IMG/VR virus record: IMGVR_UViG_2909633642_000001
Coordinates: 1,559-65,558 of that record
Direction: 5' to 3' (one strand)
DNA: 64,000 nt
Source of the DNA: a virus
Lineage: Duplodnaviria > Caudoviricetes
This document shows positions 2,919 to 51,541 of this stretch, piece by piece (position 1 is the stretch's first letter; every line of letters begins with the position of its first letter). The notes under the pieces were generated by a model. The model saw only the letters and a program-made list of their open reading frames with translations. It was not told the DNA's origin and ran no database searches. The position numbers and the translations under genes are program-made.

Positions 2919-5900
2919 TGCCAGACCAATTCGATATCACCGTCTCCGATCTTGAGACCCTACCCGGCGCTGACCTTCAAGATGGCGACCGGCTTTTGGT
3001 GTCGCGTCCGGGCGCGTTCGACAAGACCGTGACTTGGGGCGCGGTGAAGGAAGAGTTGGGGGTTGGGGTTGACCTGACTGCATTGCAGGCGCAAGTGGCG
3101 GGCAAGGCCAATGCGATCCACCAACACAGCCCCATCGACATCTTGCAGCGAGGGGAGCCAAACGGTTTCGCCACATTGGACGCGACGGGCAAGATTCCGA
3201 TCCTTCAGATTCCCGATGGGATTGGGGGCGGATCCGTGGGTGGCATTGAAGATGTGCCGGGGCTGCAAACCGCATTGGACGGGAAAGCGCCGATCACCCA
3301 CACTCAGGGAATTTCCACGATCACCGGACTCCAGACCGCATTGGATGGAAAAGCGCCGTCCGTCCACTCTCACGTCATTGCTGATGTGACCGGATTGCAG
3401 CCCGCCCTTGACGCTCGGGTATTGAGCAGTACGGTAGGGCAACCGTCCGGCGTGGCTTCTCTCGGTTCCGATGGCAAAATCCCGCCCGGTCAAATCCCGT
3501 CGCTGGCCATTGGCGAAACGTTCGTGGTGGCTTCCGAAGCGGCAATGCTGGCATTAACCGCCCAGCAGGGGGATGTTGCCCGCCGAACGGATACCGGGCA
3601 AACTTTTATCCTTCAGACGGAACCGGCTTCCACCCTTGCCAACTGGGTTCAAATTTCTGCTACCACGTCCGTCTCATCCGTTAATGGCGATATCGGTGAT
3701 GTGATTCTTACGATCACCGATATTCCAGGCTTGCAGACCGCGCTCGACTCGAAAGCCGCAACCGCTCACGTCCATTCGGGTGCGGATATCACATCCGGGC
3801 TAGTCTCGGTCGCACGGCTTGGCGCGGGTACTCCATCGGCAGCGAACTATCTGAGAGGGGATGGCTCATGGGTGGCTCCGAACGTGGCCGCGATTACCGG
3901 ACTCCAGACCGCGCTAGATGAAAAGCTCGCAACCGCATCCAACGCGGCCTCACAAGGTTTGGTCTTGACGGCAACGGGCGCAACCGCTTGGGAATGGAAA
4001 CAGCCATCGGGCGGCGGTGGCACTCCAGTCGATGCGAACGGGCATCCCGTGATCGGGGGCGTGGCTCCGGTTGCCGCTGTCGATTGGCGCGGTGGGGTCT
4101 CAGAGGTCGTGTCTGGGTTCCCTGCCTTCTCAGGTACAACCAGCGCCTACCGGGCTAACTCACGTCGGCTGTACGTAACCGCCGCAACCGCTCGGCTCCA
4201 TTACGCTCCCGACGCGGCCGGGCTGTTGGCAGAGGGGCAAATTCGGAATTATTGCGCCTATAACACTTCTGTTACGGGATGGACGGTGGTGAGCGCAACG
4301 GTGGCGGCCACATCGGGCGTGAACAATCCCGGTGGTACAGCCGGGGCGGTGCAAGTTGGCTCGACACTCTCAGGCGGATACACCCAACAAAGCGTGGTCT
4401 CGGTTCCCACCGAAGGGGCGGGCAACTACGCGGTCTCGGGATTTTTCCGGGCTGGCTCTGCCTCGGTCGTGACCCTGTGGCTGTCAGGCGACAACGGCAC
4501 GACCTTCTCCCGTTGCGCCTTTGACCTGACCACCGGGATTGCCACGCCCGACAACAGCGCCATCGTGCCCAGCAACATCCGAGTCGAGCGCTACCCGAAC
4601 GGTTGGTGGTATGTCGGATTTGTCGCAAACCTGGCATCGGTGGCAAATACCCGGATCCGAATTTATCCAGGCGGATTGGCGGGCGCGGTGGGCACGGTGG
4701 TGTTTTGGGGTACGCAGATCGCCCCGGCTGGATACGTGCCAAACCTTGGAACCTTGACTACGACGGCAGTTGCAACCAAGGTAATCGACACTCGCAGTTC
4801 GACACTTTCAACCCCGCTCACGCCTGCCGATTCAGCTTCAATCTACGCAGAGCTTTATCCCGGTGCGGCGGTTGATGGCTGTTTGTTTGCCTTGGGAGCC
4901 ACCACAGGCTCAAAGCCCCGGATCGAAATTCGTCGTACCGCGTCCGGCGATGGCGGGCTGATTCGGGCGTTCAACACAGCAGGCGTTCAGGTTTACTCCC
5001 AATCGATCACGCTGGGCACGGGGTTGACTCGGATCGCCCTGTCGGCGGGTTCCGATTCGACTTTGATCGCCGTAAACGGTACGACCTTTGCGGTTGCCGC
5101 GTCGCTCGATTGGTTGGCGATGACTCGGGTTGCGGTGGGCACGGACATCGACCTACTGAACTCGCCAGCCGGGGCTTTGTTCTTGCGGCTCCTGCTTTAC
5201 CCGTCTGTGTTTAGCATCGAGAACCTATCGGGTCTGTCGCTGGGCGGGTCTATCGGTGGTGGCTCCGGTGGCTCCGGTGGCGGTGGTAGCGTCACGCTTC
5301 CGATTGCCATCTCGGATGTGTCGGGTCTGACCGCTGTGTTGGATGGGAAGCTTGATGATTCGCAGTTAGCCCAACCGTCTGGGGTTGCGTCCCTCGATCC
5401 ATCCGGGCTAGTGCCAGTGGCTCAACTGCCCATCGTCACCACTTCGATTGCAGGGGCCATGACCGCTGCTGACAAAGCCAAGCTTGACGGGGTGGCCGCA
5501 GGCGCGACCGCCAATGCAACGGACGCTCAACTCAGAGATCGCGCAACTCATACCGGAACCCAGGCAATCGCCACGATCACGGGACTCCAAGCCGCGTTGG
5601 ACGCAAAAGCCGCGTCAGTCCACACCCACATTGCATCTGACATCACATCCGGCACGTTTACCACGGCACGGCTCGGGTCTGGCACGGCTAACGCCGGGGC
5701 ATATCTCAGGGGGGATTCATCCTGGCAAGCTTTGAACGTTGCCGCTGTCTCAGGATTGCAAGCCGCTCTGGACGCAAAAGCCGCGCTAACCCATACCCAC
5801 GTCATCTCAGATGTGACTGGGTTGCAGGCGGCTCTGGATGCAAGGGTGCTGACCTCATCCTTGGGTGTCTCGGGTGGCGTGGCGACTCTGGACGGGACGG

Positions 5901-48574: not shown

Positions 48575-49144
48575 CTATCCCCAATCGATTTGCTCATCAC
48601 GGGCTTCGGCGGCGGATGGCTCCGATGGGTTGAAGTCGATGCGTGGGGCCCTGATGGTCACGTTCTCCCCAGCGATCATCACCGTCCCCTCAGACCGGAT
48701 CGACACGTGAGCGCCATCGCCCTTGACCGTCAGGGACAGGTGGTGTGACTCGGAATCGTAGACCACGGCTGATCCATCGGGGAACACCACGTAATGTTTG
48801 TGCCCATCGGTCTTATCCCCTGTCGGCTTGATCGCGTCCGGCTCCTGTGGCGGCGGCTCTGCCTCAGTCCAGAGCGCACCCAACCAGACACCACGCTCAC
48901 CCGCTTCATCGATAGCGGCCGCTCCGAATGTGCCGATCGATGGCAGCGCGTATGATTGGCGACGGTCGGCCCCCTGTCCAGTCACGAGGCATGGCAGCCA
49001 GGGCGAAACGACACCATCTCTATCGGCTTGGGTGATCCGCACACGGCAAAGTTTGGGGTCGATCTCACTCACCACGCCATAGGCCAGTGTGGTGCGACCG
49101 GCTTCAGGACTGGCTGCTCTCTGCTGGGTTTTGGTCTTAGGCAC
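48575..49144 (-). CDS. Baseplate spike, P2 gpV-like
   Basis: G.V..ID....RVR....D..S.WL......Y.LP.IG....G..LG..W...F.DG..V.YD. Confidence 0.92.
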   Translation of the reverse strand: MPKTKTQQRAASPEAGRTTLAYGVVSEIDPKLCRVRITQADRDGVVSPWLPCLVTGQGADRRQSYALPSIGTFGAAAIDEAGERGVWLGALWTEAEPPPQEPDAIKPTGDKTDGHKHYVVFPDGSAVVYDSESHHLSLTVKGDGAHVSIRSEGTVMIAGENVTIRAPRIDFNPSEPSAAEARDEQIDWG

Positions 49145-49263
49145 TTGACAGATCGGGTAGGGGATGCCACCATCTTAGCTGTACCCCTTGGCGGGGGTTG
49201 CACAGCACCCGTAAGGCGTTATCGCATCCATCCCTCAGATTGCCGTTAGGCGTTAAATATTCC

Positions 49264-49299
49264 GAACCGCGTCCCGCTCTCTCCAGTGGGACGCGGTTC
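49264..49299. other. Perfect 12-bp GC-rich hairpin
   Basis: GAACCGCGTCCC-N12-GGGACGCGGTTC. Confidence 0.85.
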
Positions 49300-49321
49300 T
49301 GCTTTGGGCTATCATGTCAAC

Positions 49322-49424
49322 AGCACGGTAGAGCAGCCAGGTAGCTCGTGAGACCCATAGCCCCGTATAGTGAACAACTTTAGGGTAGGGCCGCAAGGCG
49401 ATGGTTCGATTCCATCCCGTGCCA
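49322..49424 (+). ncRNA. Initiator-tRNA-like RNA with elongated anticodon arm
   Basis: Acceptor (A)GCACGG/CCGTGC(C)+A; D arm GAGC-AGCCAGGTA-GCTC; T arm GATGG-TTCGATT-CCATC; CAT at canonical 34-36; about 29 nt longer than a normal tRNA. Confidence 0.75.
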
Positions 49425-49428
49425 TTCA

Positions 49429-50571
49429 TTACCCATCCGTATCGAACCGTCCAGCATCCAACGGCTTGGCCCCTGACCCCAACCGTCGCTCGCATCGAAA
49501 GTTAGTCTTCCATCCCGAACGCCCCTCAACTGAATGGCGGCATTCCTGGATCAGGTAGTTGCCCGACAACCTGCCAACACCCAACAACTCAAACATCACA
49601 CCCGCCTGAATCCGAGGATCGCCAATCACGTCAATTTGCCACTCGACTTCATTGGCATTGGCCCGCCGTAGTTTTTCCTTCGCGACCCGCTTGGCCTCAT
49701 CATCAGACCCGACCGGCTCCGAAATTTTGAGTACGTTGGCGGTCTTCTTCTCCCCTTCAGGCGGTTTGGACTTGTCGGGCTTGGCCGTATCCCCCTCAGA
49801 CGGCTCCGATTTCTCCCCGCTCACCTCAGACGCTTTCACCGTCGCCCTGAATGTCTTGCCCGATTGCGGGTCGGTGTAGGTCAACTCTGCTGAATCGTAT
49901 TTCTCAGTGCTGGTGCGTTTCCAAGTGGCGTTGGTCAACTCGGATCGGTTAAGGGTGAATGCGGCCGGCTGGGAATCCAGATCCTCCAAATCCCAGAAGA
50001 CAATGAATTTCGCGTCCTGAACCTTCATGATCAGCCCATGCTTCTCTGAAATCCGTTTCAGAAATTCCAGGGGCGTTTCATCCTTCTGCGATACCCGATC
50101 AATCACCACGGGCTTGACCTTGCCTTTCAGCTCCAATCCCGTGCGCTTGGCCACGTCAGCGGCAATTTTGTCGAGCGTGGTCTTTTCGTATTCCTTCGAT
50201 CCTTTGGTATTGGCCGGTTGGGTGATCGGCGTGGATTTGCAGGACAGCCTTAAGGACTCCCCTGATGTGGCCGATATCGTGCCAGTCGGCTCATCCAACT
50301 CGTACCGCGTGACCGGCAGGGAGCCTCCGCCCTCGTAGCCAATGGAGCACTCCAGGGAAGCACCCAAGGGCGGGAACCAATCATTCAGGAATCGCCCCGC
50401 CACCAACCATGCGTCCGGGTCGTAGAGGTCAACGTCTAGCGTGTCTGACTCACCTTCTACCGATGCGCTGACTTCCAGGCGGGTGCATAGCGCTGCAATG
50501 TCTTCGGTGATGTCGCGGCCTTGCATCACCAGCTTGAACCAGACTTTGGGGGCTAGGGAGTCTACAGCCAT
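49429..50571 (-). CDS. Baseplate hub / late control D-like protein
   Basis: G.DIT..I......GESD.L...L.D, K....EK.TL..IA..VA...GL, Q..ET.LEFL.RI, G.YLI...RH. Confidence 0.92.
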   Translation of the reverse strand: MAVDSLAPKVWFKLVMQGRDITEDIAALCTRLEVSASVEGESDTLDVDLYDPDAWLVAGRFLNDWFPPLGASLECSIGYEGGGSLPVTRYELDEPTGTISATSGESLRLSCKSTPITQPANTKGSKEYEKTTLDKIAADVAKRTGLELKGKVKPVVIDRVSQKDETPLEFLKRISEKHGLIMKVQDAKFIVFWDLEDLDSQPAAFTLNRSELTNATWKRTSTEKYDSAELTYTDPQSGKTFRATVKASEVSGEKSEPSEGDTAKPDKSKPPEGEKKTANVLKISEPVGSDDEAKRVAKEKLRRANANEVEWQIDVIGDPRIQAGVMFELLGVGRLSGNYLIQECRHSVEGRSGWKTNFRCERRLGSGAKPLDAGRFDTDG

Positions 50572-50953: not shown

Positions 50954-51541
50954 ATGTTTACTATACCTTTCGGTTGTCGAGAAATCCGGGCAATTGACGC
51001 GCCCGATGGGACTTGGTTCGTTGCTAAAGATGTGTGTGCGGCTCTAGGGCTGGACAACACGTCTCAGTCCTTGTCTCGACTAGAGAAATGGATGAAGGGC
51101 AAAGAGCGCGTTGCTGGCATTGCGGGGGGCCCTCAAAAAACCAATGTCATCAACACCGCCGGACTCAAGAAGCTGATCACCACCAGCCGCAGCCCCAAAG
51201 CCCAAGACCTTGCCTATGCGCTTGGGATCGACGTGGCTTATGCCCCACCCAAGGAAGCTGAGTGCATTCGCATCATCGCGGCCGCGCTAGCCGATCAAAC
51301 GCCCATTCACCAATTCCCCATCCTCTCCTACCGGATTGATCTGTATTTCCCGCGCGGTCGGGTGGCTGTGGAGTGCGACGAAAACGGACACCGGGGCAAG
51401 CACCGCGCGGATGCGGTTCGTCAGCGGGAAATCACCGAAGCGCTGCACTGCTCATTCATCCGATTCAACCCCGATGCTCATGACTTCAACGTTGGGCGGG
51501 TAATTCACGACATTCGAGAGGCGCTGTTCTTCCCGTACTAA
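50954..51541 (+). CDS. BRO-N plus DUF559-like endonuclease domain protein
   Basis: WFVAKDVC.ALG N-terminus; YRIDLYF....VAVECDE.GH....D..RQ..I...L.C.FIRFNPD. Confidence 0.85.
   Translation: MFTIPFGCREIRAIDAPDGTWFVAKDVCAALGLDNTSQSLSRLEKWMKGKERVAGIAGGPQKTNVINTAGLKKLITTSRSPKAQDLAYALGIDVAYAPPKEAECIRIIAAALADQTPIHQFPILSYRIDLYFPRGRVAVECDENGHRGKHRADAVRQREITEALHCSFIRFNPDAHDFNVGRVIHDIREALFFPY

What the first reader, a model, noticed from the sequence alone, without database searches (positions are those of the whole stretch)
49322..49424. Initiator-tRNA-like RNA with a rebuilt, elongated anticodon arm, antisense inside the baseplate cluster
Seen: intact acceptor stem with a 1:72 mismatch, an fMet-type D arm (AGCCAGGTA loop), a perfect T arm, and CAT at the canonical anticodon position. 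The anticodon arm does not close into a 7-nt loop. It continues as an irregular helix (CCC/GGG twice, then AGT-GAACA-ACT), making the RNA ~29 nt too long. A TATCAT hexamer at 49310-49315 would place +1 at about 49322. Inference: the intact elbow and acceptor with a non-decoding arm suggest a selected tRNA mimic. It could be a decoy for anticodon nucleases or tRNA-sensing defences, a synthetase/IF2 ligand, or an RNase P/Z-processed carrier for a small RNA, and it would also be antisense to D-V readthrough. I do not recognise it as a described family.
Basis: partly seen in the sequence, partly recalled or inferred. Interest (0 to 1): 0.82.

Follow-up and report, generated by a model that had tools for sequence, protein, structure and literature searches.

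The report
Disabled initiator-tRNA look-alike in prophage
A cyanobacterial (Limnothrix-type) prophage carries a 103-base copy of a start-codon (initiator) tRNA with an intact upper body but a wrecked, lengthened codon-reading arm; it is real but rare, seen in only two phage lineages, and nothing yet shows it is more than a crippled cargo tRNA.

Summary
Window 49322-49424 (+) scores 36.8 bits on Rfam tRNA (cut-off 29), but default Rfam filters and default ARAGORN both miss it. Its 5' half is 83-86% identical to cyanobacterial initiator tRNA genes. It keeps A11:U24, a 1x72 mismatch, G2:C71, C3:G70 and A73. The anticodon arm is broken: two of the three hallmark G:C pairs are now AxC, and 29 extra bases lie between position 43 and the variable loop. 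The resulting long helix folds no better than shuffled sequence.

The element lies on the opposite strand in the gap between the tail genes gpD and gpV. That gap is a variable cargo slot, and the element follows a small cassette of CRISPR-repeat look-alikes that ends in a terminator-like hairpin. Nine related D-V junctions lack the element. One freshwater-metagenome contig has it at the same site. Its five differences spare every acceptor, D and T stem pair, and one turns CAT into CGT.

Best reading (0.5): a disabled, non-decoding derivative of a phage-borne initiator tRNA. A selected mimic, acting as decoy or processing handle, is not excluded (about 0.35-0.4).

The scan has noted other non-decoding phage tRNA look-alikes on other DNA, but none resembles this one in sequence.

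The parts
49322..49424 (+). tRNA-like element (103 nt), derived from an initiator tRNA
   Evidence: Rfam RF00005 36.8 bits, E 3e-6, model 1-71. BLAST of positions 6-42 hits only initiator tRNA-Met genes in cyanobacteria, at 83-86% identity.
49322..49328 (+). Acceptor 5' strand AGCACGG. It pairs with 49417-49423 (CCGTGCC), leaving A1 opposite C72 unpaired. Discriminator A is at 49424.
   Evidence: Sequence; fold. G2:C71, C3:G70 and A73 are kept. Pairs 4:69 and 5:68 differ from cyanobacterial fMet on both sides.
49331..49347 (+). D arm GAGC-AGCCAGGTA-GCTC with A11:U24, of initiator type
   Evidence: The D arm is identical to that of the initiator tRNA genes in L081 and L082.
49349..49365 (+). 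Remnant of the original anticodon stem-loop, TGAGA-CCCATAG-CCCCG. Standard positions 29 and 31 are A opposite C, and U33 is replaced by C.
   Evidence: Comparison with TCGGG-CTCATAA-CCCGA of cyanobacterial initiators. Forcing the old stem costs 10.5 kcal/mol.
49366..49394 (+). 29-nt insertion between position 43 and the variable loop. It carries the apical hairpin (AGU-GAACA-ACU) and GGGUAGGGCCGC, which pairs back onto the old stem-loop.
   Evidence: Folds. No other copy or complement of 11 nt or more in the window.
49395..49416 (+). Variable loop AAGGC and T arm GATGG-TTCGATT-CCATC
   Evidence: Rfam alignment.
49310..49315 (+). TATCAT, a -10-like hexamer 6 nt before position 1, with no convincing -35
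   Evidence: Sequence. The consensus scan does not call it. The hexamer is kept in the metagenome copy although there are indels on both sides of it.
49264..49299 (+). Perfect 12-bp hairpin followed by TGCTTT. It is the terminator-like end of the upstream small-RNA cassette.
   Evidence: One search shows the pairing. Present in every relative that carries the cassette. L003 and L096 have a T-rich tail after it.
49145..49263 (+). Cassette of CRISPR-repeat-like units behind a conserved TTGACA (49145-49150). The last unit is CTCAGATTGCCGTTAGGCGTTAAAT.
   Evidence: Relatives carry units scoring 37-38.6 bits on Rfam CRISPR-DR33/DR9. The motif forms true arrays in the cyanobacterial genomes sampled, next to type I cas genes in the one locus checked.
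49429..50571 (-). gpD-like tail/baseplate hub gene. Its stop codon lies 4 nt from the end of the tRNA-like element.
   Evidence: Pfam Phage_GPD, E 9e-7.
48575..49144 (-). gpV-like spike gene
   Evidence: Weak Pfam Phage_base_V hit, E 0.0016. Followed by a PAAR gene in L033.

Best explanation
The element is a disabled derivative of a phage-borne initiator tRNA (tRNA-fMet type) gene. It was inserted as a module of about 120 bp into the hypervariable gpD-gpV cargo slot of a Limnothrix-type prophage. The acceptor, D and T arms and all elbow nucleotides are intact. The original anticodon stem (inferred UGGGG/CCCCG) lost two of its three hallmark G:C pairs to G-to-A changes, U33 became C, and 29 nt were inserted between position 43 and the variable loop. 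The insert pairs back onto the old stem-loop and buries CAU in a long irregular helix. As drawn, the RNA cannot present an anticodon to MetRS or to the ribosome. Shown here: the descent, the anatomy, the patchy distribution, and the absence of any decoding loop. Inferred: because the frame is intact, any transcript would probably still be cut by RNase P/Z and receive CCA, giving a stable uncharged tRNA-shaped RNA. That transcript could start at the -10-like TATCAT or arise by read-through of the upstream cassette. I rate it a young, non-decoding relic with no demonstrated job.
For: Positions 6-42 match only initiator tRNA genes, at 83-86% identity, including C-CAU-A-CCC. The old stem is broken, and the long-arm fold is preferred at -33.5 against -23.0 kcal/mol. 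The arm is no more stable than shuffles (z -1.05), and the whole element gives z -1.43. The element is absent from nine related D-V junctions, including gpD relatives at 97% and 90% identity. L002 and L094 share GGGCACGTC at the empty site, so the element is an insertion. CAT is CGT in the only other copy. No homologue was found in five collections. Normal-length provirus tRNAs share the same 5' half (L089, L090).
Against: Damage is confined to the anticodon arm. All 15 acceptor, D and T pairs, the tertiary positions (U8, A14, G15-C48, G18G19, T54-A58, G53-C61) and the initiator acceptor determinants are intact. In the second copy the five substitutions fall in D-loop positions 16-17a, in an internal loop, and as a U-A to U-G change. 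The body differs by 5 of 103 bases with no indels, while the adjacent non-coding flanks differ by about 13-17% plus indels (Fisher p 0.04 for substitutions, 0.001 with indels). Those contigs have only about 2x depth. TATCAT survives indels on both sides. Compact phage genomes rarely keep dead DNA, and D and V abut directly in L067 and L070.
Confidence: 0.5

Rival explanations
1. The element is a selected, non-decoding initiator-tRNA mimic. It is made as a stable uncharged RNA that works through its intact acceptor and elbow, with the 1x72 mismatch, G2:C71, C3:G70, A73 and A11:U24. It would act as a decoy or sponge for a host factor that recognises initiator tRNA, such as a tRNA-directed defence nuclease or toxin, or formyltransferase. 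Together with the neighbouring CRISPR-repeat mimic it would form an RNA-only counter-defence island.
For: The frame is intact while the arm is wrecked. The second copy keeps both the frame and the same insert, and the body is less diverged than its flanks. It is co-oriented with, and directly behind, a cassette of CRISPR-repeat look-alikes of the Racr/SRU kind (PMC10651486). The slot is a variable cargo site.
Against: There are only two copies and no covariation. The arm is no better than chance. No expression data exist. Known initiator-tRNA nucleases such as VapC read the anticodon stem-loop (from memory), and that part is destroyed here. The closest relative, L002, lacks the element. No wider family was found.
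Confidence: 0.22
2. The element is a processing or stabilising handle. It is co-transcribed by read-through of the upstream CRISPR-repeat-like small RNA, and RNase P/Z cutting at its ends defines the 3' end of that RNA. It may also protect that end. Only the acceptor, T and D frame is needed for this, so the anticodon arm is free to drift.
For: The element is on the same strand, 22 nt behind the cassette's hairpin. The T-tract after that hairpin is weak in the window (TGCTTTGGG) and shortened further in the metagenome copy (TGTTATCAT). There is no -35 for an own promoter. The frame-only conservation pattern fits.
Against: Seven cassette-bearing junctions do without it: L002, L003 (the same contig as L095), L069, L093, L094 and L096. 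The 12-bp hairpin should stop most transcription. No RNA data exist.
Confidence: 0.13
3. The element is a working tRNA whose extra segment is an intron or is otherwise removed, restoring a 7-nt anticodon loop.
For: ARAGORN with introns allowed reports a tRNA-Pro(AGG) with a 32-nt intron. Cyanobacterial tRNA-fMet genes are known to carry group I introns (from memory).
Against: The proposed mature stem has G.A and A.G mismatches. 29-32 nt is far too short for a group I intron, and no intron or ribozyme family is hit at E up to 10. No excision restores a complementary stem, because neither TGAGA nor GCCGC has a partner. The putative anticodon differs between the two copies.
Confidence: 0.03

Closest known systems
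Bacterial initiator tRNA (tRNA-fMet; Rfam RF00005)
   Same: D arm with A11:U24, an unpaired 1:72, G2:C71, C3:G70, A73, C-CAU-A-CCC at the canonical place, a canonical T loop and the Levitt pair. Positions 6-42 are 83-86% identical to cyanobacterial initiators.
   Different: The mismatch is AxC, not CxA. G29 and G31 are A, so the three-G:C signature is lost. U33 is C. 29 nt are inserted after position 43. There is no closed 7-nt loop. CAU is CGU in the second copy.
Phage/provirus-borne initiator-type tRNAs (L090 with anticodon CAT and C1xA72; L089 with anticodon CGT)
   Same: The same 5' half, YGCACGG-TA-GAGC-AG...GGTA-GCTC-G, carried on proviruses.
   Different: These are normal-length tRNAs with closed anticodon arms and encoded CCA. 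Their T arms and contexts are unrelated. The similarity was selected by my search pattern, so it is a lead and not proof of ancestry.
Non-decoding tRNA look-alikes: tmRNA tRNA-like domain, bacterial Y RNA YrlA, phage T4 stable RNAs (named from memory), and the other phage tRNA mimics noted by this scan
   Same: The acceptor, T arm and elbow are kept while the anticodon arm is replaced or sealed.
   Different: No G3:U70, no mRNA-like part, no Ro-binding stem, and no sequence relation (one search found no look-alike in the scan). Here a full D arm and a recognisable dead anticodon loop remain.
Cyanobacterial tRNA-fMet genes split by a group I intron (from memory)
   Same: An initiator tRNA gene in a cyanobacterial setting with extra sequence in the anticodon arm.
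   Different: The insert is 29 nt, sits after position 43, and matches no group I model.
RNA anti-CRISPRs / solitary repeat units and viral crRNA-like RNAs (PMC10651486; bioRxiv 10.1101/2024.10.29.618823). This comparison concerns the neighbouring cassette, not the tRNA-like element.
   Same: Phage-borne units copying the hairpin and 3' handle of host-type CRISPR repeats, with no cas genes in the stretch examined here (about 44.8-51.5 kb of the window), behind a promoter-like site.
   Different: Untested here. Neither paper mentions a tRNA partner ('tRNA' occurs 0 times in each).

Membership tests
Canonical tRNA (Rfam RF00005) | Score at or above the family gathering cut-off over the full model | tested here: met
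   36.8 bits against a cut-off of 29, model 1-71, E 3e-6. Found only with the sensitive filters; the default scan misses it.
Canonical tRNA (Rfam RF00005) | 5-bp anticodon stem closing a 7-nt loop with U33 | tested here: not met
   The old stem has 3 of 5 pairs, with two AxC. Position 33 is C. The MFE fold buries the loop in a 47-nt helix. Default ARAGORN finds no gene.
Canonical tRNA (Rfam RF00005) | Acceptor, D and T stems plus the conserved tertiary nucleotides | tested here: met
   6+4+5 Watson-Crick pairs. U8, A14, G15/C48, G18G19, A21, G53-C61 and T54T55C56, A58 are all present.
Bacterial initiator tRNA | No Watson-Crick pair at 1:72, with G2:C71, C3:G70 and A73 | tested here: met
   A1 is opposite C72, the reverse of the usual C1xA72. 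The other three features are present.
Bacterial initiator tRNA | A11:U24 in the D stem | tested here: met
   GAGC/GCTC, identical to the cyanobacterial initiators L081 and L082.
Bacterial initiator tRNA | Three consecutive G:C pairs at 29-31:39-41 | tested here: not met
   The 5' strand is U-G-A-G-A opposite C-C-C-C-G, so only G30:C40 survives.
Bacterial initiator tRNA | CAU anticodon, conserved and presented in a loop | tested here: not met
   CAU is at the canonical position but lies inside the long helix or its internal loop. The second copy has CGU.
Bacterial initiator tRNA | Aminoacylation by MetRS and formylation | not testable with these tools
   Needs biochemistry.
Group I intron-containing tRNA gene | Intron of about 200 nt or more with a group I core | tested here: not met
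   The insert is 29 nt. No Intron_gpI or ribozyme hit at E up to 10.
tmRNA tRNA-like domain | G3:U70, degenerate D arm, tag reading frame | tested here: not met
   C3:G70 and a full D arm. ARAGORN's low-stringency 'tmRNA' has an unidentified tag and is spurious. No Rfam tmRNA hit.
Selected structured ncRNA (any) | Compensatory changes in the novel helix across homologues | tested here: inconclusive
   Only two copies exist. The single change in the arm helix is U-A to U-G, and there are no double changes.

The most novel reading that the evidence does not exclude
The element is a selected, non-decoding mimic of initiator tRNA. It is expressed next to a CRISPR-repeat mimic, so that the gpD-gpV gap of these cyanobacterial prophages is an RNA-only counter-defence island. 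The tRNA-shaped RNA would act through its preserved initiator acceptor and elbow, either as a decoy for a tRNA-sensing or tRNA-cutting host factor or as an RNase P/Z handle for the neighbouring small RNA.
Probability: 0.35. Interest if true: 0.7.

Novelty: new member of a known kind. Interest (0 to 1): 0.36.

Why it matters
If it is only a crippled cargo tRNA, it is a tidy example of how a phage initiator tRNA dies. It also warns annotators, because default Rfam and ARAGORN runs both miss it. If the intact frame is under selection, it would join the still poorly understood phage tRNA look-alikes that do not decode. In that case it would be the first one tied to initiator identity and placed beside a CRISPR-repeat mimic, which would point to RNA-only anti-defence cargo in tail-gene junctions of cyanobacterial prophages. 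The neighbouring cassette may be the more directly testable lead, as a candidate RNA anti-CRISPR against cyanobacterial type I systems.

Tried and rejected
- Pattern scans for homologues. IMG/VR gave nothing related; the single hit, L004, is a different tRNA-like with a 44-nt variable-arm hairpin. In GTDB genomes, 24 of the 28 loci hit are assembly duplications or N-masked tRNA-fMet genes; L014, L031 and L032 carry variant tRNAs inside tRNA arrays and L025 is another unrelated match. JGI metagenomes gave nothing related; L071 is a normal tRNA-fMet next to a chance T-loop.
- BLAST against INPHARED phages and PLSDB plasmids gave only partial matches to tRNA-Met 5' halves or to T arms.
- BLAST against 401 cyanobacterial genomes hit only host initiator tRNAs. 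One 3'-half hit (L088) is not a tRNA.
- gpD search in 401 cyanobacterial genomes found only relatives at about 30% identity, which are of no use for synteny.
- The host assembly is not held as a searchable genome, so the host's own tRNA-fMet could not be read.
- Sequencing-run search: no RNA holder is listed. One freshwater DNA run held a small share of the words.
- Intron or class-II readings were rejected because the stems are poor.
- The arm was tested as a copy or antisense of anything in the window: nothing of 11 nt or more.
- The arm was tested as a CRISPR-repeat mimic or ribozyme: no Rfam hit at E up to 10.
- Chimera of two tRNAs or an att-site scar: rejected because the 5' and 3' acceptor strands are mutually complementary and differ together from host fMet.
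- No complex or structure prediction was run.

Full report
**Observation.**
- The acceptor stem is AGCACGG/CCGTGCC, with A1 facing C72 and discriminator A.
- The D arm is GAGC-AGCCAGGTA-GCTC and the T arm is GATGG-TTCGATT-CCATC.
- CAT lies at the canonical anticodon position.
- The middle arm makes the element about 29 nt longer than a normal initiator tRNA.
- Rfam's tRNA model scores it at 36.8 bits (cut-off 29, E 3e-6, full model) when a short stretch is searched with sensitive filters.
- The default whole-window scan and default ARAGORN both report nothing. Routine annotation would therefore miss it.
- ARAGORN with introns allowed forces a tRNA-Pro(AGG) with a 32-nt intron, but the stem contains G.A and A.G oppositions. 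I reject that reading.

**Anatomy and descent.** BLAST of the 103 nt against 401 cyanobacterial genomes hits only one kind of gene. Positions 6-42 match initiator tRNA-Met(CAT) genes at 83-86% identity, and ARAGORN confirms what those genes are.

The match runs through the D arm, which is identical to L081 and L082.

| Part | Cyanobacterial initiators | This element |
|---|---|---|
| Anticodon stem-loop | TCGGG-CTCATAA-CCCGA | TGAGA-CCCATAG-CCCCG |

- Standard positions 29 and 31 are A opposite C, so two of the three hallmark G:C pairs are gone.
- U33 has become C.
- Twenty-nine nucleotides (49366-49394) lie between position 43 and the variable loop AAGGC.
- The insert has an apical hairpin (AGU-GAACA-ACU), followed by GGGUAGGGCCGC, which pairs back onto the old stem-loop.
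- The MFE structure is a cloverleaf with one long irregular arm, at -33.5 kcal/mol. Forcing the old anticodon stem costs 10.5 kcal/mol.
- The arm on its own is unremarkable: -12.3 kcal/mol, z -1.05, with 27 of 200 shuffles as stable.

The rest of the molecule is fully canonical. All 15 acceptor, D and T pairs are Watson-Crick, and U8, A14, G15/C48, G18G19, G53-C61 and the T-loop are present. The initiator acceptor features survive: an unpaired 1:72 (AxC instead of CxA), G2:C71, C3:G70, A73 and A11:U24. Pairs 4:69 and 5:68 differ from host-type fMet on both strands. The ancestor was therefore a diverged tRNA, probably phage-borne, and not a fresh copy of the host gene. Two normal-length provirus tRNAs with the same 5' half exist: L090 (CAT, C1xA72) and L089 (CGT). 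My pattern selected for that 5' half, so this is only a lead.

**Context.** The window is an IMG/VR provirus record. The same locus lies on a 244-kb contig of NCBI assembly GCA_014696485.1. The closest gpD relative is annotated from Limnothrix sp. PR1529.

On the minus strand lie tail protein X, a gpD-like gene (49429-50571), a gpV-like gene (48575-49144) and PAAR. The tRNA-like element sits on the plus strand in the 284-nt D-V gap, 4 nt from the gpD stop codon.

That gap is a cargo slot.
- D and V abut or overlap in L067 (gpD 90% identical) and L070 (39%).
- Other relatives carry 140 nt to 1.2 kb there, some with extra ORFs.

Seven cassette-bearing junctions (window, L002, L003 which is the same contig as L095, L069, L093, L094, L096) share a plus-strand cassette. 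It consists of a conserved TTGACR, a variable set of CRISPR-repeat-like units, a constant last unit (CTCAGATTGCCGTTAGGCGTTAAAT), and a perfect 12-bp hairpin followed by T-rich sequence.

The tRNA-like element follows that hairpin by 22 nt on the same strand. Its only promoter-like feature is TATCAT at 49310-49315. There is no -35, and the consensus scan does not call it.

**Distribution.** None of the nine other assembled D-V junctions has the element (L002, L003/L095, L067, L069, L070, L093, L094, L096, L097). This was checked by BLAST and by ARAGORN with introns allowed, by alignment, and for L002 and L003 also by Rfam. L002 and L094 share GGGCACGTC at the empty site. The element is therefore an insertion of about 120 bp replacing about 6 bp, with no target duplication.

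Laying the contigs of a freshwater metagenome on the region showed one 151-nt contig, at about 2x depth, spanning 49286-49426. It carries the element at the same site, between the hairpin and the gpD stop.

Within the 103 nt it differs at five positions.
- 49337-49339: CCA to TTT, at D-loop positions 16-17a.
- 49357: A to G, turning CAT into CGT.
- 49377: A to G, turning a U-A pair of the apical stem into U-G.

No acceptor, D or T pair changes, and there are no indels. The 20-nt leader has two substitutions and eight indel letters, yet it keeps TATCAT. The cassette region differs by 13 substitutions and 4 gap letters in 98 nt.

The body is thus less diverged than its non-coding flanks (Fisher p 0.04 for substitutions, 0.001 with indels). 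I treat this as weak evidence. Depth is low, the cassette may be fast-evolving, and a recent transfer of the module would look the same.

No other homologue was found. The collections searched were IMG/VR, GTDB species genomes, JGI metagenomes, INPHARED phages, PLSDB plasmids and this scan's own index.

**Interpretation.** What is shown:
- It is an initiator-tRNA-derived, tRNA-shaped sequence that cannot decode as drawn.
- It was inserted into a variable cargo slot.
- It is present in two lineages and absent from nine.

What is not shown: expression, processing, or selection on the new arm.

I put 0.5 on a disabled relic, possibly still transcribed and trimmed because the frame is intact. Against this, the damage is confined to the anticodon arm, the second copy spares every frame pair, and compact phage genomes seldom keep dead DNA.

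So I leave about 0.35 in total for a selected non-decoding RNA.
- A decoy acting through the initiator acceptor and elbow: 0.22.
- An RNase P/Z handle for read-through transcripts of the upstream cassette: 0.13. The T-tract after the hairpin is weak in the window and shorter still in the metagenome copy, which fits this idea.

A removable intron that restores a working tRNA is very unlikely (0.03). The remaining probability, about 0.1, is left unassigned.

**Comparison with known kinds.** The element fails membership of functional initiator tRNA on the three-G:C signature and on the presented, conserved CAU. It passes on the acceptor and D-arm features. It is not a tmRNA-like domain (C3:G70, full D arm), and it is not a group I intron host. 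It resembles the loose class of non-decoding tRNA look-alikes. This scan has noted several of those in other phages, but none is similar in sequence.

**Side finding.** The cassette units copy the hairpin and 3' handle of a genuine cyanobacterial CRISPR repeat.
- The motif TGCCGTNAGGCGTTGAGCAC (up to 2 mismatches) occurs in 51 of 401 genomes sampled, mostly as arrays with a period of about 72 nt.
- In the one such locus whose flanks I checked, the array lies next to Cas6, Cas3, Cas7/DevR, Cas5 and Cas4-Cas1.
- L002 and L093 also carry a unit like a type I-C repeat, ending ATTGAAAC (Rfam CRISPR-DR9, 38.6 bits in L002).
- Unit spacing in the phages is irregular, 52-61 nt or abutting, against 70-75 nt in true arrays.

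This fits solitary repeat units / RNA anti-CRISPRs (PMC10651486) or viral crRNA-like regulators (bioRxiv 10.1101/2024.10.29.618823). It fits a working mini-array less well. Neither paper mentions tRNA.

One caveat applies. The conserved TTGACR region also lies just upstream of gpV on the other strand. I did not resolve which strand the conservation serves.

Noticed in passing
window 49145-49305 (+); L002:4141-4408 (-); L093:1371-1510 (-); L094:2838-3094 (-); L003:4144-4660 (-): The gpD-gpV gap holds a plus-strand small-RNA cassette: conserved TTGACR, variable CRISPR-repeat-like units, one constant last unit, and a 12-bp terminator-like hairpin. The units are DR33-like with a ...GCCGTNAGGCGTTGAGCAC hairpin and handle; in L002 and L093 there is also a type I-C-like unit ending ATTGAAAC. 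The motif forms true arrays in the cyanobacterial genomes sampled (51 of 401 carry it); the one locus whose flanks were checked has type I cas genes beside the array. Spacing in the phages is irregular. This is a candidate RNA anti-CRISPR or crRNA-like regulator and may be a better lead than the tRNA-like element.
   Followed up: partly
L067:1490-1520; L070:4016-4035; L069:1183-2378; L097:1436-2326: The gpD-gpV junction is a cargo hotspot. D and V abut or overlap in L067 and L070. L069 has a 1.2-kb insert with extra ORFs and repeated GGTGCAACGGAAA(C/T)CTGACTT(G/A)GG(C/T)GATCGTTGCAAG units. L097 has a 281-aa reverse-strand gene.
   Followed up: partly
L004:1037-1152 (-): An unrelated IMG/VR contig carries a 116-nt tRNA-like (Rfam tRNA 35.6 bits). 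It has an initiator-type D arm, a G3:U70 acceptor, an odd anticodon loop CCAGAAA, and a 17-bp hairpin in the variable region (fold z -2.8).
   Followed up: partly
L014:5252-5319 (+); L031:1666-1737 (-); L032:4793-4860 and 4938-5005 (+): Inside tRNA-Met arrays of Shewanella, a Cellvibrionaceae MAG and Saccharospirillum, some initiator-type tRNA genes have the 3' half of the anticodon arm replaced by 19-23 other bases, with a shared junction GGGCTCA(A/G)CTCT. ARAGORN calls two of them 91-95-nt 'tRNA-Leu' (CAA, CAG). They may be initiator bodies with altered anticodons, or array pseudogenes.
   Followed up: partly
L089:4120-4199 (-): A provirus tRNA with an initiator-type D arm and acceptor TGCACGG but anticodon CGT (Thr), the same triplet that replaces CAT in the metagenome copy of the element. 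This may be coincidence.
   Followed up: no
window 50954-51541 (+): A Bro-N plus DUF559/Vsr-like endonuclease-fold gene on the opposite strand, just upstream of the tail X-D-V genes. It is conserved at this place in L033 and L094.
   Followed up: no
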